From NCBI GenBank assembly GCA_963764165.1, contig CAVXRD010000003.1:288001-352000 (forward strand): 64,000 nucleotides of DNA, in the 5' to 3' direction. The DNA comes from an uncultured Verrucomicrobiae bacterium. Lineage in GTDB: Bacteria > Verrucomicrobiota > Verrucomicrobiia > Limisphaerales > Palsa-1400. The position numbers were made by a program, and so were the translations under genes. Below the pieces are notes generated by a model. It was not told where the DNA came from and searched no databases. It was given only the letters and a program-made list of their open reading frames with translations. Shown piece by piece: positions 20,456-29,708 of this stretch; within the stretch, counting starts at the first letter, position 1; every line of letters begins with the position of its first letter.

Positions 20456-22354
20456 CTATTTCGCGCCGCTCTTCAGCGCTTCCAATTCCTCCCAGCGCTT
20501 GTAAAGGCGGGGCAATGTCTCTTTGGCGGTCGCGAGTTCGGCCAGGAGGCCGGTGGTTTGCGTGGCGTGTGTGCGATGAAATTCCGGCGAGGCGAACAAG
20601 CCTTCGATGCGTTCGATTTCCGCTTCAAGCGCAAGAATTTTCGGCTCCATGGATTCCAATTCCCTAGCGTCTTTGAAAGAGAGCTTGCCTTGCTTGACTG
20701 GCTTGGCCGGAGCCGCGGACTGCGAAGTTGCCCCAACAGCATTCGCCTTTGAGGGCGGGCGGGGCGCGGATTTGCTTTGGGTCCGGCGCTGCTTTTTCTC
20801 GAGGTAATAATCGTAATCGCCCGCGCTGTGATGAATGCGCCCATCCCCCTCGAAAGCCAGAATGTCCGTGCAGACGCGATTCAGAAAATACCGGTCATGG
20901 CTCACCACGCAAACGCAGCCAGGAAAGGACTGCAATGCCTCTTCGACCACGCGCAACGTCGGCAAGTCCAAGTCGTTGGTCGGTTCGTCAAGAATAAGAA
21001 AATTGCCGCCGCACTTGAGAATCCGCGCCAGCAGCAAGCGACTGCGTTCGCCGCCGGAAAGATATTTCACCTGCGTCGTGATGCGTTCGTCAGCGAAAAG
21101 GAAACGCTTCAGATAACTGCGCAGGGAGATTTTCGATTCGCCCCACTGCACCCATTCCGTTCCGTCAGCCGCTTCATCCAAAACAGTTCGTTCGTCGTTC
21201 AATTGCAGGCGGGATTGATCGACGTAATTGAATTTCGTCAATTGGCCAATTTTGATCGTCCCCTCCGTCGGCGCAAGCTGGCCGATGATGATCTTGAGCA
21301 GCGTCGTTTTGCCAAGCCCGTTCCGCCCGCAAATGCCTATGCGGTGGCCGTTCTCAAATTCGTAATTGAACCCGCTGAATAAAACGCGTCCGCCCAATTC
21401 CATGCCGAGGTTTGAGATGTCAACAACACGATTGCCCAATTGTGGCGGCGGAGGGATGACCAGCTCCATGTCTTCCTCGATGGGCTTTTGCTCCTGCGCC
21501 GCCGTTTCGTAATAGCGCTCAAAACGATTCTTCTGCTTGCTGCGTTGCGCGCGCGGCCCCTGGCGCACCCAGGCCAGCTCCTTTTTCAGGAACATCTGGC
21601 GCTTGTGCTCAGTGACCGCGTCGGCGGCCTGGCGCTCGGCTTTGGCCAGAAGGTAATCGGTGTAATTGCCGTTGTGGCTGAAGAAAGTTCCGTTGGACAA
21701 TTCCACCATCCGGGTCGCGACTCGATCCAAAAAATAACGGTCATGGGTGACGACCAGAAATGCCCCGTGAAAATTCTCCAGAAAATCCGCCACCCATTCG
21801 ATGGATTCCGGGTCAAGATGGTTGGTGGGTTCGTCAAGAATAAGGAAATCCGGCTGCGAAACAATCGCCCGGGCCAGCGCCACGCGCCGCTGCTCGCCGC
21901 CGGACAGCGATTTGATGTCGCGATCACCCGGCGGGCAATTCAAATGCGCCAGCGCCGTCTCGACGCGCTGGTCGAGCGTCCAGCCTTCCAGGGATTGGAT
22001 GCGATGCTCCAATTCCTCGTGCCGATGCGATTCGGCTGGAAGCGACTCGAATTCCGCGATGAAGGCCAGTGTTTTCGCCGCTCCCTGCCGGACGTTTTCG
22101 CGCACGTTCAGCGCGGGATCGAGCGTGAAGTCCTGCGGAAGATATCCGATGACCAGGTCGCGCCGCCCGGTGACAGTGCCTTCGTCCGGCGATTGCAGTC
22201 CCGCCAGAATCTTGAGGAACGTCGTCTTCCCGCATCCATTGCGCCCGACCAAACCGATGTGGTCGCCTTCCTCGATGCCGAGCGTGGCGGAATCCAGAAT
22301 CGCCCGCTCGTTAAAGCGGACAACCACATTTGTCGCGGCGATGATCGTAGCCAT
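20456..22354 (-). CDS. ABC-F family ATPase (Uup-like)
   Basis: Two NBDs (GRNGCGKTT, GRNGLGKTT; LSGGE; DEPTN), no TM domain, C-terminal coiled coil. Confidence 0.93.
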   Translation of the reverse strand: MATIIAATNVVVRFNERAILDSATLGIEEGDHIGLVGRNGCGKTTFLKILAGLQSPDEGTVTGRRDLVIGYLPQDFTLDPALNVRENVRQGAAKTLAFIAEFESLPAESHRHEELEHRIQSLEGWTLDQRVETALAHLNCPPGDRDIKSLSGGEQRRVALARAIVSQPDFLILDEPTNHLDPESIEWVADFLENFHGAFLVVTHDRYFLDRVATRMVELSNGTFFSHNGNYTDYLLAKAERQAADAVTEHKRQMFLKKELAWVRQGPRAQRSKQKNRFERYYETAAQEQKPIEEDMELVIPPPPQLGNRVVDISNLGMELGGRVLFSGFNYEFENGHRIGICGRNGLGKTTLLKIIIGQLAPTEGTIKIGQLTKFNYVDQSRLQLNDERTVLDEAADGTEWVQWGESKISLRSYLKRFLFADERITTQVKYLSGGERSRLLLARILKCGGNFLILDEPTNDLDLPTLRVVEEALQSFPGCVCVVSHDRYFLNRVCTDILAFEGDGRIHHSAGDYDYYLEKKQRRTQSKSAPRPPSKANAVGATSQSAAPAKPVKQGKLSFKDARELESMEPKILALEAEIERIEGLFASPEFHRTHATQTTGLLAELATAKETLPRLYKRWEELEALKSGAK

Positions 22355-22434
22355 AAAAAATTACATTCTCGTAAACCGAGCCTGTCATTCTGGCAGTGTA
22401 TCTTTGCGGATGCAAGAGGCGCGCTCAATCACGC

Positions 22435-22624
22435 CAGGGCAGACGCATCTAAATTCCGAGGTAGGGACGCCTCGCCGAGGCGTCCGGTTGCGCGCGAAAA
22501 TGCTTTTGGCGTTGTCCGTGAATAATGCCTCACCCGGACGCCTCGGCGAGGCGTCCCTACCATCAACGAGCTGGGCGCTCGTTGATTTTCAATAGATTAC
22601 AAGAATTAAGATGCGTCTGCCCTG
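22435..22624. mobile_element. 190-bp non-autonomous MITE, IS4-like ends, carrying a REP-A pair
   Basis: 22-bp TIRs CAGGGCAGACGCATCTWAATTC (21/22 match); 10-bp direct repeat TCAATCACGC at 22425-22434 and 22625-22634. Confidence 0.85.
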
Positions 22625-22680
22625 TCAATCACGCCCGGAGGCGGACGCAGGATAAATTTTCCATACGTGCCCGCCTCCGA

Positions 22681-22876
22681 AGCGCCGTAGGCGCGGCATC
22701 GTTGTAGGGCCGGCGAGAATGAACATTCAACCTCCGCAGGAGCGGCACCTCGGGAAACGTCAAGCGGTTTAGGAAAGCCGGCGTTCAACATCGCGTCCGC
22801 CGCAGGCGCCGTTCCTACGGAGGTTGGAAACATTTTCGTTGTTCGTTTCTGCAACGATGCCGCGCCTACGGCGCTT
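22681..22876. repeat. REP-like family B composite palindrome
   Basis: AGCGCCGTAGGCGCGGCATCGTTG...CAACGATGCCGCGCCTACGGCGCT. Confidence 0.85.
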
Positions 22877-22896
22877 TGGCGTTGACCAGTCCCGGT

Positions 22897-23079
22897 TCAA
22901 GGCGGCGGCAGGAGGCGTTCCACTTCGATGGCATCGGCCTCGGGATGTTGGCTTCGAATCCCTTCCCGCGCGATATCGCAGGATAACTCATGCAAATCCA
23001 GCGCAATCGCCAGACGCTGCTCGCCCGTCATGCCACGGTAGCGCGCAGTTTGTTCAGCCAATGCTGTTGCCGCGTTCAT
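22897..23079 (-). pseudogene. Small antitoxin-like protein, probably frameshifted at the C-terminus
   Basis: RYRGMTGEQRLAIALDL...AREGIRSQHPEAD..EVERLL then PPP*; one extra base restores LRRRLE. Confidence 0.55.
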
Positions 23080-23119
23080 CGTCCTTCATTAGGTGACAGC
23101 AAATTCGTTTTGCAACAAC

Positions 23120-23488
23120 CTACCTAATGGTAATCCAGCGATTCACCAAATTTCCGTCGGTCGCCACCAGCGCGGCCACAATCGCTTTAGCCAATGCCCC
23201 AATCTGATTTGCCCTGAACCGTTCCAAGTCATAGAACAACACACCGCCGTGCGGGCGGTTGTCCCCTACCCGCAGCGCGATCCAACCTGGGAGGGTGGCG
23301 CGATCTTTGGAAACCAGCGCCCGGCGCTCCTGCCAGCAAGCCTCCAGAATAACGTCGTCTGTGGCATTGATATAGGCGCCGTCCTGCCAGGAGGAAACAT
23401 GCTGAATGTCGACTTGAAGGCAAAGACGCTTCACGGCCTTGGCCACATCCGCCGGCACATGAGCATCCAGCAGCAATCTGGCTCTCAC
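23120..23488 (-). CDS. DUF5615 family PIN-like toxin (VapC45-like)
   Basis: RLLLDAHV, ATDDVIL, RALVSKD; overlaps the upstream gene by 4 bp. Confidence 0.8.
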   Translation of the reverse strand: MRARLLLDAHVPADVAKAVKRLCLQVDIQHVSSWQDGAYINATDDVILEACWQERRALVSKDRATLPGWIALRVGDNRPHGGVLFYDLERFRANQIGALAKAIVAALVATDGNLVNRWITIR

Positions 23489-23898
23489 ACCCGGATGAAT
23501 GAATGATTCGGAACCAATCGCTCCAACTCCTCGGCTGATTGCCGGCCGGCAGCGCGGTCTTCGGCGATCTCGTCTGGAAATGCCTGTGCGTAGGCCAAAG
23601 CGGCCTTCATCAACAGGGCAGGCAGTCTGAGCATCCGGGCAGCCTTGTTAGCATTGCCCTTGCAGTCCTCCAAGGTTTCAACCGCCAGCCATACCGGAAG
23701 ACGCACTCCGCGGATATAGGCCATTCGGCCAACGGGAGTTTGGCGCAATTCGACGCTGGGGTGCTTGCTCGCGCGCACCCCTTGCGTCACAAAGTCAGCT
23801 CCCAGTGTGGCTGCGCTTGTCCCAAAACGCCTGGCCATTTGCTCCAAGTCCAGCTTCACCCCCTCGGGCACTCGCAATGAAATCGGTTTAGTCGCCAT
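23485..23898 (-). CDS. Antitoxin, RHH-like N-terminus + DUF433-like domain
   Basis: KPISLRVPE; GRMAYIRGVRLPVW...AALAYAQAFPDEI. Confidence 0.8.
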   Translation of the reverse strand: MATKPISLRVPEGVKLDLEQMARRFGTSAATLGADFVTQGVRASKHPSVELRQTPVGRMAYIRGVRLPVWLAVETLEDCKGNANKAARMLRLPALLMKAALAYAQAFPDEIAEDRAAGRQSAEELERLVPNHSFIRV

Positions 23899-23987
23899 GC
23901 AATGTGTACTTTGGCATTAGCACCGGTGCGCGTCAACAGCGTCTTCGAAATTTTGAGGGTGGAAAACGAACGAAGGAACGGAGAAAC

Positions 23988-24066
23988 AGCCGCGGCGCGT
24001 TGCGATCAATCGATGCGTCTTCAGATCCAAAGTGCTGCGGCTGGTCTTCGACACTGCCGCGCTCCG
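23988..24066. repeat. REP-like family D (GCTGCGGCTGGTCTTCGACACTGCCGCGCTCCG)
   Basis: Same family at 62581-62683. Confidence 0.75.
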
Positions 24067-24089
24067 CTTAAAATTGGCGACAGCTTCTG

Positions 24090-24374
24090 CTAATAAGAGC
24101 AAGCCAGCTCGATGATCTGGCCGCAACTGCATTCAATCTTGATGCCGGACACCACGTCGCCCTGTTTTTGCATCGTCACCACCGGTGGTTTGAGGCAGGG
24201 ATTGGCGGCTTGGGCGGGCGCAGGCGCCGGAGCCGAGCCTGCTGGAGGCGCGCTGGGCGCCAGTGATTCGAAGTTCGATTCCGCCGCTGGTTTTGGCAGG
24301 ACCTTCAGGTGGAACACCGCTGTATCGCCGGCTGGAGCCGGCCCGGTCACGAGGGGAACAAACGCTTCAGACAT
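24090..24374 (-). CDS. Small Pro-rich protein with C-terminal ECSCG...C motif
   Basis: Last gene of the fliA-motAB operon, 19 bp after motB. Confidence 0.8.
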   Translation of the reverse strand: MSEAFVPLVTGPAPAGDTAVFHLKVLPKPAAESNFESLAPSAPPAGSAPAPAPAQAANPCLKPPVVTMQKQGDVVSGIKIECSCGQIIELACSY

Positions 24375-24393
24375 AATGATTCGTAATTCGCAA

Positions 24394-25122
24394 TCAGCTC
24401 TTCTTGTTCGACTGCATGCTCAGCAAAACCGAAACCCGGCGGTTGACTTCGTTGGTGGCGTCGGTGTCGCGCAGCGGCTTTGTGTCACCGTAGCCGGCCA
24501 CCTTCACCACCTGCGAGCTGCCGACGCCGTGTTCGAGCAATTTCCGCCGCACGGCATTGGCGCGGTCTGTCGAAAGTTCCCAATCGCCGTAATCAGGGCG
24601 CACCGGCGGATTGCCACTCTCGGTGTGCCCTGACAACTCAATGGTAAAGCCGGAATAACGCGCAATTTCCCACGACAGCGTCGAGAACACCCAGTCGCCG
24701 TAAGGCGTAAAGCGTGTGCTTTGCGGCTCGAAAATCGGCTTGTGCGACTTGTCAAATATATTGATCAGCAGCCCTTCGGGCGTCAGGTCCAATTTGACGG
24801 TTTCCTCCGCCCCGTCCTCGGAGGATTGGAGCGAGCGGAGCAAATCCTGGTTGATGCGCCGGAGCATGTTCAACTCGACGGCTGAGGAAGAATCAAAATT
24901 GCCGGAGCTCGACTTGACCGCCTGGATTTCGTCGTTCTTGATCAGGCCGACGGATTCCTTGGTGATGGATGAAAACGGATTGCGAAAAGCGCGCTCGACG
25001 GCGTCCTTGATGCGCTGGTCCTGCGACGTCAGCCATAGCACAATGAAGAGCGCCATCATCGCGGTGGTGAAATCCGCGTAAGCCACCTTCCACGCGCCGC
25101 CGTGATGTTTCTTGGAACTCAT
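24394..25122 (-). CDS. motB: Stator protein MotB
   Basis: HHGGAWKVAYADFTTAMMALF (conserved Asp); OmpA-like PG-binding domain (GHT, WELSTDRA, NRRV). Confidence 0.93.
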   Translation of the reverse strand: MSSKKHHGGAWKVAYADFTTAMMALFIVLWLTSQDQRIKDAVERAFRNPFSSITKESVGLIKNDEIQAVKSSSGNFDSSSAVELNMLRRINQDLLRSLQSSEDGAEETVKLDLTPEGLLINIFDKSHKPIFEPQSTRFTPYGDWVFSTLSWEIARYSGFTIELSGHTESGNPPVRPDYGDWELSTDRANAVRRKLLEHGVGSSQVVKVAGYGDTKPLRDTDATNEVNRRVSVLLSMQSNKKS

Positions 25123-25129
25123 GCTCCGG

Positions 25130-25996
25130 TTATTTTGACGCCTGGGTCAGAGATTTGAGCATCGCTTCCAGGCCTTCCGAACTCGGTTTGACTTCACTGG
25201 TCAGCCCGCGCCGCGCGATTTCAACGGCCATGATCGGAGACATTCCGTTGGCAAAACTCACCACGGACGCCGCAATGCAGCGGATGTAGGCGGCTTCCGC
25301 CACGCCAATAAATTCCATGTTCACGGCGAGCGGATTCATGAAGCCGTAGGAAATAAAGATTCCAAGGAAGGTCCCCACCAGCGCCGCGCCCACTTTTTCG
25401 CCGATCTTTTCAATCGGGCCGGAAATGGACGCCATCGTGATGACGATGCCCAAGACGGCGGCGACGATGCCGAATCCCGGCATGGCGTCGGCGGCCTTGG
25501 TCAGCACGCCGATGGGCTGTTCGTGTTCGCGCTCCATCGCGTCCAATTCGATATCCAGGAGCAGCTTCAAATGGTCGGGCTTGATCTTGCCGTCGATGAT
25601 GGGACGCAAGCCGTTGCAGAGAAATTCCATCGCATGCTTGTTCTTCTGAAAGCCCGGGTATTTCTGGAAAATGGTGCTCGTCTCGGGCGTCATGATGTGT
25701 TCCTCCAGCGCCACCATGCCGCCGCGGCGGCCGAGCATGAACAGTTCGTAAAGCGCGCTGAAAAGTTCGTCGTAGGCTTTCTTGGAATAAGGCGAGCCTT
25801 TGAGCGCTCCGATGGTCTGCTTGAACAGGGCAACCAGAACATGCTTGGGCGACATGAGGACGAGCGCCCCGAGCGCCGCGCCACCGATCATGATCAACTC
25901 CGACAAATGGAGCAGCGCCATGGTATTGCCCCCGGCCAGGATGAATCCCCCGAGAACCGAACCTATGACGATGAGAGCTCCTAGAATGACAATCAT
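25130..25996 (-). CDS. motA: Stator protein MotA
   Basis: RRGGMVALEEHI, ADAMPGFGIVAAVLG, GAALVGTFLGI. Confidence 0.95.
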   Translation of the reverse strand: MIVILGALIVIGSVLGGFILAGGNTMALLHLSELIMIGGAALGALVLMSPKHVLVALFKQTIGALKGSPYSKKAYDELFSALYELFMLGRRGGMVALEEHIMTPETSTIFQKYPGFQKNKHAMEFLCNGLRPIIDGKIKPDHLKLLLDIELDAMEREHEQPIGVLTKAADAMPGFGIVAAVLGIVITMASISGPIEKIGEKVGAALVGTFLGIFISYGFMNPLAVNMEFIGVAEAAYIRCIAASVVSFANGMSPIMAVEIARRGLTSEVKPSSEGLEAMLKSLTQASK

Positions 25997-26002
25997 GAGC
26001 GG

Positions 26003-26833
26003 CTAGAGGGGGTTATTGAAAACCTCCGGGTCTTCTTTTTGCAGCAGCGCCTTGATGGCCAGGATGGCCTGCGAATGGATCTGGCAAATGCGCGATTCCG
26101 TCACGCCAAATGCCTCGGCAATTTCCCGCAGCCGCAAATCCTCAAAGTAATAGAGCGCCAGCACCTTCCGCTGCATTTCCGGCAACTGCTGCAACCGCGT
26201 TTCAATCAGCCTGGCCAATTCGCGCACAGAGGCGTAGTGCTCCGGGTTTTCCTGCGAGCTGTCCGCCACCATATCGTAAATGGACCCGCCATCGCCTTCG
26301 TGCCCTTGCGAGGAATCCAAGCAGACGTAAGTCGTCGGGCGGACTTGCTCCAGCAATTCCTCGTATTCGTCCAGCGGCATCTTCAGGGCTTTGGCCATCT
26401 CGGTGTTGCTGGGAATGGAACCCGAGCGCTGCATCAGTTCCTGCATCGCCTTTTCGACTTTCTTAGCCTTCTCATGGATCGAGCGGGGCACCCAGTCTAA
26501 GCGGCGCAATTCATCAAAAATGGCTCCGCGAATGCGGACACGGGCATATGTTTCAAATGAAGTTCCATTTTCCGGCTTGAACCGGCGCATCGCGTTGAGC
26601 AATCCGACCAATCCCGCGCTGTAGAGATCGTCACTGTTGACGTGGGAAGGCAGCGTCATGGCCAGGCGGCCGACGACAGTCTTGACCAGGGGCAGATATT
26701 CTTCGACGAGGCTGTTTTCCATGACGCTGCCGGGGCCGCTGCGGGAATAGAGCCGCCACAATTCCTGCTGCGTTGCGCGGCGTTGTTCAGGCATGGAGGA
26801 GGGAGTTTCGAGTTCGCAAAGGGTCGCGCTCAT
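26003..26833 (-). CDS. fliA: FliA/WhiG family sigma factor (sigma28)
   Basis: DDLYSAGLVGL, FETYARVRIRGAIFDELRRLDWVPRS, GVTESRICQIHSQA. Confidence 0.92.
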   Translation of the reverse strand: MSATLCELETPSSMPEQRRATQQELWRLYSRSGPGSVMENSLVEEYLPLVKTVVGRLAMTLPSHVNSDDLYSAGLVGLLNAMRRFKPENGTSFETYARVRIRGAIFDELRRLDWVPRSIHEKAKKVEKAMQELMQRSGSIPSNTEMAKALKMPLDEYEELLEQVRPTTYVCLDSSQGHEGDGGSIYDMVADSSQENPEHYASVRELARLIETRLQQLPEMQRKVLALYYFEDLRLREIAEAFGVTESRICQIHSQAILAIKALLQKEDPEVFNNPL

Positions 26834-27090
26834 GTTTTAGAGGTTTTGGGGGCCATGGGAGACGGAGGCGCAGGCGGAGGCGCTGCTTCTTCGGCCTTCT
26901 CCTTTTCGAGCAAAGTCTGTTGCAGATTGGCGCGCCAGGTTCGTCCCCACCATCGCGCCAAAAGCGCGGTGATATAGGCGGCCAGGCATCCATGCCAAAA
27001 GCAGACCGGAATGGAACTCCCCTGCAGGGCGCTGACTCCAGCGCCGAGTGCGAGTCCCAAAATTCCCCCGGCCAGCAACAATGTTTTCAT
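26830..27090 (-). CDS. Small two-TM membrane protein, first gene of the operon
   Basis: Overlaps fliA by 4 bp (ATGA); two hydrophobic helices and a Pro-rich tail. Confidence 0.75.
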   Translation of the reverse strand: MKTLLLAGGILGLALGAGVSALQGSSIPVCFWHGCLAAYITALLARWWGRTWRANLQQTLLEKEKAEEAAPPPAPPSPMAPKTSKT

Positions 27091-27116
27091 GACACTTCAC
27101 AGTCGAGAACACGAAT

Positions 27117-27132
27117 AGCAAGACCATTGCCA
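27117..27132 (-). promoter_or_regulatory. sigma54 (-24/-12) promoter
   Basis: Minus strand reads TGGCAATGGTCTTGCT with exact GG-N10-GC spacing, about 27 bp before the start codon. Confidence 0.8.
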
Positions 27133-27304
27133 TGTTTGGCGAATGACCGTGGCCGGGTGCCTGAAAAGGCCTGATTACGAGGGAAAAACACCAGCGAATG
27201 ATTTCCTCCAGCTTGTCAGGAAAACCCTTGTCGGCACTTTTTTCCCCGCCCGCCAAATCGCGGGGCGGCAATTTATTCCGGCCTCCCGCAGGGCGGGAAC
27301 CATT

Positions 27305-27366
27305 CGCATAATTCCCATTAATCCCATTCTTCCCATGTGAGTTATGGGAATAATGGGAGTTATGCG
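27305..27366. repeat. Hairpin built of TCCCAT/ATGGGA units
   Basis: CGCATAATTCCCATTA...TAATGGGAGTTATGCG. Confidence 0.7.
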
Positions 27367-27438
27367 ACTGGCACAGTGTCGCCCGCAGAGTTTTTCTGTG
27401 CGGTTTCTGAACCGGCGGGCATTAGACTGTGGAACAGC

Positions 27439-29277
27439 ATGAGCGAAGATTCCCAATTGTTGCAGAGTTACGCCGCCACCGGATCGGAAGCGGCGTTCTC
27501 TGAATTGGCGCGGCGCCATGTGGATCTTGTTTATTCCGCCGCGCTTCGATTGCTGAACGGGGATGCGCATCGCGCCCAGGATCTGGCCCAGCAGGTGTTC
27601 TGCGAATTGGCGCGGCGGGCCCCGCAGCTCGCGCGCCATCCGGCCCTCGTCGGCTGGCTTTACACAACCACACGGCAAATGGCGTGCCGGATTATTCGCA
27701 CTGAACAGCGCCGCGCCGCCCGTGAACAAGTGGCCCACACGATGAATGAGATCACCCGCCAAACCGGGACGCCGCCGAATTGGGACCAGCTTGGCTCCGT
27801 GCTGGAAGACGCCATGCACGAATTGGCGGAAGCCGACCGGCTCGCCATCCTCATGCGCTTTTTCAATAATAAAAGCCTGCGGGACACTGGCGCGGAATTG
27901 GGCGTTTCGGAAAACGCCGCCCGCATGAGAATTGACCGGGCGCTTGACAGGCTTCGGCAGAATCTTCAGCGAAAGGGCATTTCATCGACCGGCGTGGCGC
28001 TCGCCACAGCATTGTCCAGCAATGCCGTCCAAACCGCGCCCGCGGCATTCTCCGCGTCAATCGCGGCTGGAGCGCTGGCGGGCGTCGCGTCAAAAGGCGG
28101 AACTTCACTCAGCTTGATAAAACTTATGGCAGCCACAAAACTCAAAATCGGCCTTGCTCTCGTCATCATTGCGGGCGCGGCCGCGATATATCATTCCGAG
28201 CACGCCGCGCGCCTTGCGTCAGATGCGGAAAGCGAAAATCTCCGCCGCCAGCTGGCGCAAATGAAGGCGGACAATGCTGAACTTTCCAGCCGCCTCGCGC
28301 TGTCAATTCACTCGCATTCCAGCCAAAATGCCTTGGCTAATGCGGCTGGCGCAGGAACGCCTCTTGCGAACACGAATACCGCGGCGAGCTTGCGGGCAAG
28401 GCTGATCGAAAGTCCGCCAAAGGTCACCGCCGAGCAACTTGAGCCATACCTAAAATCCCATCATCGCGACGCCACCAGTCTTTTGGCCGCCTATCGCGTC
28501 AGTCACGATCCAGCGTTGCTGCAGGAAGCGATGAAGAACTTCCCCACCGATTCGCAGGTCGATTTCGAGGCATCCATCAACACGAACGCATCCCCCGCCG
28601 AGCGCCGCCAATGGTTGAATGCTCTTGAAACATCCGCGCCTGATAATGCTCTCGCCAATTATTTATCCGCCGCGGCCTACTTCAAATCAGGCCAAAGCGA
28701 CCTCGCGCTTCAAGAAATCGCCACCGCATCTGGCAAGCAAAGTTTCATGGACTACACGACGGATCGGATGGTGAACGACAACGAGGCTTATCTGGATGCG
28801 GGATTTTCCGTTACGGATGCGCGAACACTTTCCGCCGCCCAATTATTGCTGCCGCAACTTTTCGATATCAAAGACCTTGGCCTGAACCTGCTTTCGCTCG
28901 CGCAAACGTATCAGCAATCCGGCGACACCAGCTCCGCACAGCAAGCGTTTCAGATGGCGGCAGCGCTGGGTCAGCGATACTCAACCGCGCAACCTGGCGA
29001 GCCAGAAGTGAGTCAACTCGTCGGAATGTGGATTGAGCATCAAGCCCTTGGCGGGATGGACCCGAACACCGCAGTCGGCGACAACGGCCAGACCGCGCAA
29101 AACCAACTCGACCAGCTAAACCAGGCGCGCGCGACTCTCAAAGATCTGAATGACCAGGCTCAGCCTTACTTTGACACCATGTCCGACACGGATTACATGA
29201 CTTACAAAGACCGCTGGATGGCCTTCGGCGAAGAAGCCGCTTTGAGGTGGGTCATCAATAAATTCGGCCAGCCATGA
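27439..29277 (+). CDS. ECF sigma factor with TM helix and long extracytoplasmic helical extension
   Basis: SEAAFSELARRHVDLVYSAA, LGVSENAARMRIDRAL; TM at KIGLALVIIAGAAAIY. Confidence 0.9.
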   Translation: MSEDSQLLQSYAATGSEAAFSELARRHVDLVYSAALRLLNGDAHRAQDLAQQVFCELARRAPQLARHPALVGWLYTTTRQMACRIIRTEQRRAAREQVAHTMNEITRQTGTPPNWDQLGSVLEDAMHELAEADRLAILMRFFNNKSLRDTGAELGVSENAARMRIDRALDRLRQNLQRKGISSTGVALATALSSNAVQTAPAAFSASIAAGALAGVASKGGTSLSLIKLMAATKLKIGLALVIIAGAAAIYHSEHAARLASDAESENLRRQLAQMKADNAELSSRLALSIHSHSSQNALANAAGAGTPLANTNTAASLRARLIESPPKVTAEQLEPYLKSHHRDATSLLAAYRVSHDPALLQEAMKNFPTDSQVDFEASINTNASPAERRQWLNALETSAPDNALANYLSAAAYFKSGQSDLALQEIATASGKQSFMDYTTDRMVNDNEAYLDAGFSVTDARTLSAAQLLLPQLFDIKDLGLNLLSLAQTYQQSGDTSSAQQAFQMAAALGQRYSTAQPGEPEVSQLVGMWIEHQALGGMDPNTAVGDNGQTAQNQLDQLNQARATLKDLNDQAQPYFDTMSDTDYMTYKDRWMAFGEEAALRWVINKFGQP

Positions 29278-29287
29278 ATCCATCGAC

Positions 29288-29394
29288 GGCAGGGCGAGAC
29301 TCTGTCGAGCCCTGATCAAGTTTTTAATTAATTCGACTAAGGATTCCCTCGATACCCAAAATCCACAATGGTCTCGACAGAGTCTCGCCCTGCC
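29288..29394. repeat. REP-like family C pair between convergent genes
   Basis: GGCAGGGCGAGACTCTGTCGAG...CTCGACAGAGTCTCGCCCTGCC. Confidence 0.85.
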
Positions 29395-29402
29395 AGCCTC
29401 AC

Positions 29403-29708
29403 TTAATCCTCTTTGCGGGTCTTTACCGCGGGCTTTTTCTTGTAGGGGGAATGGAGATTAAAATAAATGCCGCACAGGGGGCGGTCATTTTCGGTCTGGC
29501 TGAGAATGATCGTGACTTGCTTGTCCAGCGCGATGCCGTGGCGGAGATGCGGGCCGCGCGTCAAGTAAGTCTTGATCGCCTTGTCCATTAGCGAAATTAA
29601 AGCCGCCTTGCATTCCTCGGGAGTTTTATCGATGCACACGATGTGCTTATCGTAGGACTTGAGGGCCTCGATGATCTCCGCTTGAAATGTTTCGACGGTT
29701 AAATCCAT
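29403..29708 (-). CDS. Hypothetical protein
   Basis: Starts 3 bp after yggS; ends CGIYFNLHSPY + basic tail. Confidence 0.8.
   Translation of the reverse strand: MDLTVETFQAEIIEALKSYDKHIVCIDKTPEECKAALISLMDKAIKTYLTRGPHLRHGIALDKQVTIILSQTENDRPLCGIYFNLHSPYKKKPAVKTRKED

What the first reader, a model, noticed from the sequence alone, without database searches (positions are those of the whole stretch)
24090..27280. Stand-alone sigma54-driven operon: membrane ORF-fliA-motA-motB-CxC ORF, with no flagellar neighbours
Seen: five tightly coupled genes (4-bp overlap, then gaps of 6, 7 and 19 bp) between a TA module and an ECF gene. There is no fli/flg/flh structural gene or che gene elsewhere in the 64 kb. 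MotB keeps the ion-binding Asp and a PG-binding domain. MotA keeps the RxxG..LE charged residues that contact FliG in E. coli-type stators. Known: MotAB-like 5:2 motors also drive non-flagellar machines (ExbBD, TolQR, ZorAB, GldLM). Inference: this is either a detached flagellar stator operon or, if the genome lacks a flagellum, a repurposed ion-driven motor or sensor linked to a sigma28. In that case the two-TM ORF and the CxC ORF would be unknown partners (anti-sigma or rotor substitute).
Basis: partly seen in the sequence, partly recalled or inferred. Interest (0 to 1): 0.78.

Follow-up and report, generated by a model that had tools for sequence, protein, structure and literature searches.

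The report
Detached flagellar stator and sigma-28 operon
This five-gene block holds the genome's only flagellar motor-power genes and only flagellar sigma factor, split off from a complete flagellar gene set elsewhere in the same genome, so it is likely an ordinary flagellar operon; its last small gene matched no named family and likely has a flagellar job.

Summary
The five genes, their spacings and the sigma54-type box are real, but the repurposed-motor idea fails. This genome has a complete flagellar gene set on other contigs, and the cassette carries its only motA, motB and fliA. The same sigma54 box precedes flgB, flgF and fliW. Sigma28 boxes precede both flagellins and a flgM-like gene. 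In relatives the block is the tail of the flagellar superoperon (flhA-flhF-2TM-fliA-motA-motB-CxC-flgF); its own promoter likely allowed it to move.

MotA tracks FliG: 115 of 120 MotA-positive genomes in a 221-genome order sample have FliG. The five exceptions are assembly gaps or decaying flagellar systems. The two-TM ORF is FlgV-like by position, topology and profile; Type-1 membership is unproven.

What remains open is the 94-aa CxC protein. It matched no named family or solved fold. At E<=1e-3 it occurs only in FliG-positive genomes (26 of 301), and in other classes it sits in a different flagellar cluster (fliS...flgM). It is probably an undescribed flagellar accessory protein. This genus's FliM also lacks the usual CheY-binding peptide. 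Verdict: ordinary, with a small lead.

The parts
27117..27132 (-). sigma54-type -24/-12 promoter box, 42 bp upstream of the first gene
   Evidence: strict motif in 28 of 30 order-level loci; same box before flgB, flgF and fliW of this genome; rpoN present
26830..27090 (-). FlgV-like two-TM inner-membrane protein, 86 aa (likely basal-body accessory)
   Evidence: two hydrophobic helices 4-22 and 27-45; lies between flhF and fliA in relatives; a family profile ranks six flhG-X-fliA ORFs of another class first after the query among 55,323 ORFs; FlgV described in PMC11607428 sections 8 and 17
26003..26833 (-). fliA, flagellar sigma28; the only copy in the genome
   Evidence: TIGR02479 255.8 bits against cut-off 189.6; single copy; sigma28 boxes before fliC1, fliC2 and the flgM-like gene
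25130..25996 (-). motA, stator A subunit (E. coli-type); the only copy in the genome
   Evidence: TIGR03818 316.2 bits against cut-off 303.8; PF20560 and PF01618; R90/E98/P173/P222; single copy
24394..25122 (-). motB, stator B subunit; the only copy in the genome
   Evidence: PF13677 plug and PF00691 OmpA; best NCBIfam model is flagellar MotB at E 1e-48, below its cut-off; D17 in the TM helix; single copy
24090..24374 (-). 94-aa CxC protein: short N-terminal motif, disordered linker, C-terminal three-strand domain with C82, C84, C92; flagellum-linked, no named family
   Evidence: conserved in 28 of 30 and 23 of 23 MotA loci; 26 of 301 genomes at E<=1e-3, all FliG-positive; in fliS...flgM clusters of other classes; model; no family or fold match

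Best explanation
This is the genome's only stator and sigma28 operon, a block that sits at the tail of the flagellar superoperon in relatives and likely moved away here on its own sigma54 promoter, and it likely powers and regulates an ordinary flagellum encoded elsewhere in the genome. Shown: gene identities, single copy number, the complete flagellar set, the shared promoter boxes, the ancestral gene order and the co-occurrence. Inferred from known flagellar biology: sigma54 with an enhancer-binding protein transcribes flgB..flhF, flgF..flgL, fliW-csrA and this operon. MotA5B2 anchors to peptidoglycan through MotB, conducts ions at MotB D17 and turns FliG through MotA R90/E98. FliA is held by the FlgM-like protein until the hook-basal body is complete and then transcribes the two flagellins and flgM. 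The 2TM protein likely acts like FlgV, a membrane ring at the MS/C-ring junction that aids assembly. The CxC protein is likely a small cytoplasmic flagellar accessory with a Cys-liganded (probably zinc) beta domain on a flexible tether; its partner is not identified.
For: Complete set in G000: flgBC-fliEFGHIJ..flgDE-fliLMNOPQR-flhBA-flhF, flgFGAHIJNKL, two fliC, fliD, fliS, fliW-csrA. Apart from fliC, each is single-copy. No other motA, motB or fliA. FliG keeps the charged torque-helix residues (positions recalled). The sigma54 box precedes flgB, flgF, fliW and this operon. A sigma28 pattern occurs 14 times against 3-5 in shuffles, including before fliC1, fliC2 and the flgM-like gene. The intact superoperon order is seen in G023 and G011. 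flhF lies directly upstream in 13 of 30 order loci and 13 of 23 class loci (the loci reach only about 1.5 kb). Co-occurrence: 30 of 30 MotA-positive relatives have FliG; 33 of 35 in the 301-genome phylum sample, the other two being weak partial hits; 115 of 120 in the 221-genome order sample. The 2TM profile hits 32 of 301 genomes, 31 of them FliG-positive (partly by construction, since some members were in the alignment).
Against: Five order-level genomes have motA without FliG (G350, G398, G449, G455, G476), and a congener of G350 (G539, 82% complete) keeps the whole cassette intact with its basal-body cluster deleted. The FlgM candidate scores below both cut-offs (E 0.012 Pfam, 0.023 NCBIfam). 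MotB is below the curated MotB equivalog cut-off. No flhG was found. FliM lacks the usual CheY-binding peptide. Motility and expression were not shown.
Confidence: 0.93

Rival explanations
1. A repurposed, non-flagellar ion-driven motor or sensor (Zor/Exb/Tol/Gld-like) in which the small ORFs replace the rotor or act as anti-sigma.
For: The cassette is isolated in this genome. Two genomes of one genus (G350, G539) keep motA and motB with fliE-flhA deleted; motA is 89.5% identical between them at saturated synonymous sites.
Against: A full rotor, export gate, rod, hook and filament set needs a stator, and this is the only one. In G350 and G539 the deletions have different breakpoints (flgC::flhA and flgB::flhA), so they likely postdate the split and the conservation reflects the flagellated past. 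G350 is decaying: stops in fliA and flgL, a Gly-to-Arg change in the conserved motA PGFG motif, and a degraded promoter box. G398 and G449 have broken motA inside deleted clusters; G455 and G476 have flhA and flagellin. Seven of the 8 NCBIfam hits of MotA are stator models (the eighth is a weak sorting-domain hit), none Zor/Exb/Tol.
Confidence: 0.02
2. The operon is flagellar, but the CxC or 2TM protein is a second, direct regulator of FliA (anti-sigma or anti-anti-sigma).
For: CxC lies in the fliA operon in one class and beside flgM and fliS in other classes. The FlgM candidate is only a weak family match. FlgV is co-conserved with sigma28 (PMC11607428 section 8).
Against: A FlgM-like gene with its own sigma28 box and the usual fliS neighbour exists. 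CxC has no FlgM similarity and lacks the HxxxCxxC zinc anti-sigma motif (motif recalled). FlgV was localised to the basal body in two organisms (PMC11607428 section 17; PMC10655999 passages). In two of the other-class genomes checked CxC lies between cheY and cheX, which points to the motor instead.
Confidence: 0.04
3. The cassette is a relic or mobile fragment, no longer coupled to a working flagellum in this strain.
For: It sits next to a TA module, and its upstream neighbour differs from that in congeners. Decaying flagellar systems exist in the order.
Against: All five frames, the promoter box and about 40 other flagellar ORFs are intact. Pairs of flagellated relatives show dN well below dS for all five genes.
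Confidence: 0.01

Closest known systems
Flagellar stator MotAB (E. coli/proteobacterial type, TIGR03818) with FliA/sigma28
   Same: MotA above the curated cut-off with R90/E98; MotB with TM Asp, plug and OmpA domain; cognate FliG and sigma28 promoters at the flagellin genes.
   Different: motAB lies in one sigma54-type operon with fliA, not in a sigma28-dependent motAB-che operon as in E. coli (recalled). The operon is physically detached from the other flagellar clusters. No flhG was found, and FliM lacks the CheY-binding peptide.
FlgV (Borrelia BB0268 Type-1; Campylobacter/Helicobacter Type-2), PMC11607428 and PMC10655999
   Same: Small two-TM protein with a polar disordered tail, at the flhF/flhG-fliA junction. 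The paper reports homologues in the PVC clade, Verrucomicrobia included. A conserved TM2 arginine is present in the family.
   Different: [quoted passage not shown] It lies outside the superoperon in this genome. No direct alignment to BB0268 was obtained.
sigma54/sigma28 flagellar cascades (Campylobacterota, Vibrio, Pseudomonas; recalled)
   Same: rpoN present; sigma54 boxes at the basal-body, rod and stator operons; sigma28 boxes at flagellins and flgM; fliW-csrA present.
   Different: The activating enhancer-binding protein was not identified; one NtrC-type gene lies about 7 kb from the flagellins.
Non-flagellar 5:2 motors (ZorAB, ExbBD, TolQR, GldLM; recalled)
   Same: Shared MotA/TolQ/ExbB proton-channel fold (PF01618).
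   Different: It has the MotA_N domain and FliG-contact residues, no long ZorA tail and no Zor/Ton/Tol/Gld neighbours, and it co-occurs with FliG.

Membership tests
Flagellar stator MotAB | MotA passes a curated flagellar MotA model | tested here: met
   TIGR03818 316.2 against 303.8 bits
Flagellar stator MotAB | Rotor-contact Arg/Glu and conserved prolines in MotA; ion-binding Asp, plug and peptidoglycan-binding domain in MotB | tested here: met
   R90, E98, P173, P222; D17; PF13677, PF00691 (E. coli positions recalled)
Flagellar stator MotAB | MotB passes a curated MotB equivalog | tested here: inconclusive
   best model is flagellar MotB NF006548 at E 1e-48, 165.8 against 277 bits; the models are lineage-specific
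Flagellar stator MotAB | A cognate rotor (FliF, FliG, FliM, FliN) is encoded in the genome and has no other stator | tested here: met
Flagellar stator MotAB | 5:2 complex, ion flux and torque on FliG | not testable with these tools
   needs structure and motility assays
FliA / sigma28 | Passes the FliA/WhiG model; sigma28 promoters lie before flagellin genes | tested here: met
   TIGR02479 255.8 against 189.6; TAAAG-N15-CCGATA before fliC1, fliC2 and the flgM-like gene
FliA / sigma28 | A cognate anti-sigma FlgM is present | tested here: inconclusive
   89-aa ORF before fliS, FlgM as the only hit in both libraries but below cut-off (E 0.012, 0.023)
FlgV superfamily | Two TM helices followed by a polar, disordered tail | tested here: met
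   hydropathy 4-22 and 27-45; alignment
FlgV superfamily | Gene between flhF/flhG and fliA in the flagellar superoperon | tested here: met
   met by orthologues and by profile-linked flhG-X-fliA ORFs; in this genome only the fliA side is kept
FlgV Type-1 | Conserved arginine in TM2 | tested here: inconclusive
   position 33 is His here (Arg in 92 of 191); position 46 is Arg (162 of 191); which one matches the paper's Arg could not be seen, as Fig. S6A is an image
FlgV Type-1 | [quoted passage not shown] | tested here: not met
   no Asp/Glu in residues 22-33 and no hydrophobic tail in this protein; therefore filed as FlgV-like, not as Type-1
FlgV Type-1 | Significant sequence match to BB0268 or spirochete/Bacillota FlgV | not tested
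   no such sequence was returned; searches reached Verrucomicrobiota and, by Atlas features, Planctomycetota clusters
FlgV superfamily | Forms a ring at the MS/C-ring junction | not testable with these tools
   needs cryo-ET
ZorAB/ExbBD/TolQR/GldLM | System-specific partners nearby, ZorA tail or ExbD/TolR-type B subunit, independence from flagellar genes | tested here: not met
   288-aa MotA with MotA_N; MotB plug; neighbours fliA and FlgV-like; co-occurs with FliG; the PADLOC library was not scanned
Anti-sigma factor (FlgM or zinc anti-sigma), for the CxC ORF | FlgM domain or HxxxCxxC motif | tested here: not met
   no family hit; the motif is CxC..C; zinc anti-sigma motif recalled

The most novel reading that the evidence does not exclude
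The CxC ORF is an undescribed flagellar accessory protein, kept across at least three classes of Verrucomicrobiota in two different flagellar clusters. Its three-cysteine beta domain would bind metal or sense redox and, through its N-terminal docking peptide, control the motor or the sigma28 checkpoint. In this genus, whose FliM has lost the CheY-binding peptide, it could be the motor's main control input. That the family is a real flagellar factor without a named family is likely (about 0.7); the sensing and control role is the speculative part.
Probability: 0.12. Interest if true: 0.5.

Novelty: new member of a known kind. Interest (0 to 1): 0.15.

Why it matters
As a whole it does not change what is known: it is a split flagellar operon. 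It gives a sketch of the sigma54-to-sigma28 flagellar cascade in a little-studied soil phylum, shows that an internal sigma54 promoter goes with repeated detachment of the stator/fliA block, and extends FlgV-like proteins there. The useful leads are small: a conserved flagellum-linked CxC protein with no named family, and a motor whose FliM lacks the CheY-binding peptide while some relatives carry a second fliG-fliM pair that has it.

Tried and rejected
- FliA-CxC co-fold: no answer, score 0.00 against a mark of 0.32, partner fold uncertain; used neither for nor against. MotAB and the 2TM protein were not co-folded.
- CxC fold searches: no Foldseek match at E<=0.001 (top hit a zinc ribbon at E 0.6); best Z 3.2 in the wide search; PDB sequence searches gave only chance hits. 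These blanks do not show a new fold.
- ESM Atlas on stored homologues: clusters named hypothetical, one Roadblock-labelled Planctomycetota cluster at 0.86 with 12% of members carrying that family; Planctomycetota hypothetical clusters for the 2TM protein.
- Idea that the CxC N-terminal peptide mimics the FliH N-terminus: rejected, as the two do not resemble each other within lineages.
- Direct hhalign of the first 2TM alignment to one Pontiellaceae ORF was weak (probability 2%, E 0.02); only the 191-member profile gave the link.
- A metagenome scan with one distant CxC protein found no relatives, so the range outside the phylum is untested.
- No RNA holder was listed. No Rfam match in 22000-29500. 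No sigma70 promoter and no excess of terminators.
- Five FliG-negative genomes hit the CxC profile weakly (E 0.018-0.048); one was checked (G333) and is a non-coding frame without flagellar neighbours; four were not checked.
- The two weak MotA-only phylum hits (G084, G251) and one weak 2TM hit (G326) were not followed up.
- This genome's lipoprotein-like ORF before flgM showed no blastp similarity to those beside CxC in other classes.
- Six paper searches listed nothing on the CxC protein; only titles and abstract starts were seen for all but the FlgV papers.
Full report
Observation. The five ORFs, their strand, spacings and flanks are as described. FliA passes TIGR02479 and MotA passes TIGR03818. 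MotB has plug and OmpA domains, with flagellar MotB as the best model though below its cut-off. The two small ORFs match no Pfam or NCBIfam family. The sigma54-type box at 27132-27117 is not beyond chance alone, but the strict motif is present upstream in 28 of 30 order-level loci and a looser one in the other two. Named homologues place the organism in Verrucomicrobiota.

The genome has a flagellum. G000 (97% complete, 5 contigs) has FliG, FlhA and flagellins. Annotation of those regions gave flgBC-fliEFGHIJ-(two ORFs, the second FliK-like by position)-flgDE-fliLMNOPQR-flhBA-flhF at C2:686-704 kb, flgFGAHIJNKL at C2:1472-1480 kb, and two fliC plus fliD at C2:1515-1519 kb. A flgM-like gene with fliS and a fliT-like gene lies at C2:189 kb, fliW-csrA on C5, and one che cluster on C1. 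The window's motA, motB and fliA are the only copies. rpoN is present; flhG was not found. The same sigma54 box lies 30-48 bp before flgB, flgF, fliW and this operon. A sigma28 pattern occurs 14 times against 3-5 in shuffles; four of these precede fliC1, fliC2, the flgM-like gene and the ORF before it, and ten precede other genes.

Ancestral position. In G023 and G011 the block is the tail of the superoperon: flhA-flhF-2TM-fliA-motA-motB-CxC-flgF. flhF lies directly upstream in 13 of 30 order loci and 13 of 23 class loci; the loci reach only about 1.5 kb, so the class count is a lower bound. The 2TM, fliA and CxC genes accompany motA in 30, 30 and 28 of 30 order loci and in 19, 22 and 23 of 23 class loci (profiles were built partly from these loci). 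The whole genus has the block detached, and G000 differs from a congener in its upstream neighbour. That the internal promoter permitted the moves is inference.

Co-occurrence. Relatives: MotA in 30 of 41, FliG in 32 of 41, and every MotA-positive genome has FliG. Phylum sample: FliG in 33 of 301, MotA in 35 of 301; the two extra are weak partial hits that were not followed up. Order sample: FliG in 118 of 221 (two weak hits, G342 and G393, dropped as not FliG, leaving 116), MotA in 120 of 221, 115 shared. These genomes are kin and not independent.

The exceptions. G455 and G476 have flhA and flagellin, and FliG is likely lost to assembly gaps. G398 and G449 have internally deleted clusters with broken motA. 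G350 has lost fliE-flhA and carries stops in fliA and flgL, a changed motA motif and a degraded promoter box. The two deletions have different breakpoints, so they are likely independent and recent, and the conservation between the two genomes reflects their flagellated past.

The 2TM ORF. PMC11607428 (sections 8 and 17 read; supplements searched, with the alignment figure not readable) describes FlgV as a two-TM protein at the flhF/flhG-fliA junction, found in the PVC clade and forming a ring in the basal body. PMC10655999 (passages) reports the same for Helicobacter, and the bioRxiv version of the first paper was seen as passages. The window's ORF has that topology and slot. A 191-member profile ranked six ORFs lying between flhG and fliA in Pontiellaceae-type loci first after the query among 55,323 ORFs (E 4e-4 to 0.04), ahead of all other ORFs of this genome; a seventh candidate (L082) was not hit. 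A broader profile hit 32 of 301 genomes, 31 FliG-positive. Two Type-1 marks are missing in this protein and no alignment to BB0268 was obtained, so it is filed as FlgV-like.

The CxC ORF. It has a short conserved N-terminal motif, a variable linker and a C-terminal three-strand domain (pLDDT about 90) with C82, C84, G85 and C92 invariant in 22 order-level sequences. At E<=1e-3 it is found in 26 of 301 genomes, all FliG-positive. It was not found in three flagellated genomes of family f56 with this profile. In six genomes of other classes it lies in a different flagellar cluster: after fliS and a fliT-like gene (after cheY in three of them), before cheX or a lipoprotein-like gene and usually a flgM-like gene (several neighbours named by inspection). 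Two unrelated flagellar contexts make a flagellar role likely. Metal binding and a docking role for the N-terminal peptide are inferences; no partner was identified. Six paper searches listed nothing on it; subscription journals are largely outside that library.

Mechanism. Most likely a standard sigma54-then-sigma28 cascade. This operon is expressed with the basal-body operons. MotAB drives FliG. FliA, once freed from FlgM, turns on the flagellins. The FlgV-like protein aids basal-body assembly. The biochemical steps rest on established flagellar biology (recalled), not on tests here. One oddity bears on control: FliM lacks the N-terminal CheY-binding peptide (motif recalled) in all five genomes of the genus. 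The peptide or a clear variant was seen in 9 of 30 FliM loci, two of them second, orphan fliG-fliM pairs. The motor may therefore not be switched by CheY in the usual way.

Verdict. An ordinary detached flagellar stator/sigma28 operon (0.93), interest 0.15. The residual lead is the unnamed flagellum-linked CxC family. Two look-ups of earlier scan findings gave nothing bearing on it.

Noticed in passing
L007:11518-12438 (G000:C2:696518-697438): FliM starts directly at the middle domain and lacks the N-terminal CheY-binding peptide; the same holds in all four congeners. The genome's single che cluster (C1:548-558 kb: cheA, cheW, cytoplasmic MCP, cheR, cheB, cheY, cheC, PAS/GAF kinase) may serve another output.
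   Followed up: partly
L114:14278-17564 (G018), L115:11535-13679 (G016); also G006, G010, G013, G014, G019, G021, G023: Several relatives carry a second fliM away from the main cluster, often beside a fliG. In G016 and G023 this second FliM has the CheY-binding peptide; in G018 the pair follows a response regulator and an HDOD-like gene. Possibly an exchangeable C-ring module.
   Followed up: partly
L158 (G350:C5), L159 (G539:C110), L150 (G398), L151 (G449): Flagellar loss caught in progress: independent flgB/flgC-to-flhA deletions in two congeners (in G539 an in-frame FlgB-FlhA fusion) and multiply deleted clusters in two others. Assembly artefacts were not excluded.
   Followed up: partly
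G000 sigma28-pattern hits, (e.g. C1:1320134, C2:1765257, C2:182223, C2:1992018): Ten sigma28-like boxes lie before non-flagellar genes, several of them receiver-domain-like signalling proteins and a ClpP-like gene (named by inspection): a possible wider FliA regulon.
   Followed up: no
L137, L139, L140 (G117, G263, G144): Flagellated members of other classes use a distant MotA (25-28% identity) in a flgD/flgE-(FlbD-like)-motA-motB-fliL order, so the E. coli-type stator behind fliA is specific to this class.
   Followed up: partly
window 22897-23898: DUF433-like/DUF5615 PIN-type TA module plus an Rv0078B-like ORF just downstream. TA-like genes also follow the cassette in G004, G012 and G022 (by inspection), suggesting an insertion hotspot.
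   Followed up: no
L048:5707-6360 (G000:C2:189707-190360): A 217-aa lipoprotein-like ORF with its own sigma28 box sits before the flgM-like gene and has no family match; similar-sized lipoprotein-like ORFs precede flgM in other classes.
   Followed up: partly
window 27337-29277: A 646-aa ECF sigma factor with a long C-terminal extension, transcribed divergently from the operon.
   Followed up: no
G000: flhF is present but no flhG/fleN was found; flhF abuts the 2TM gene directly in the relatives of this class that were checked.
   Followed up: partly
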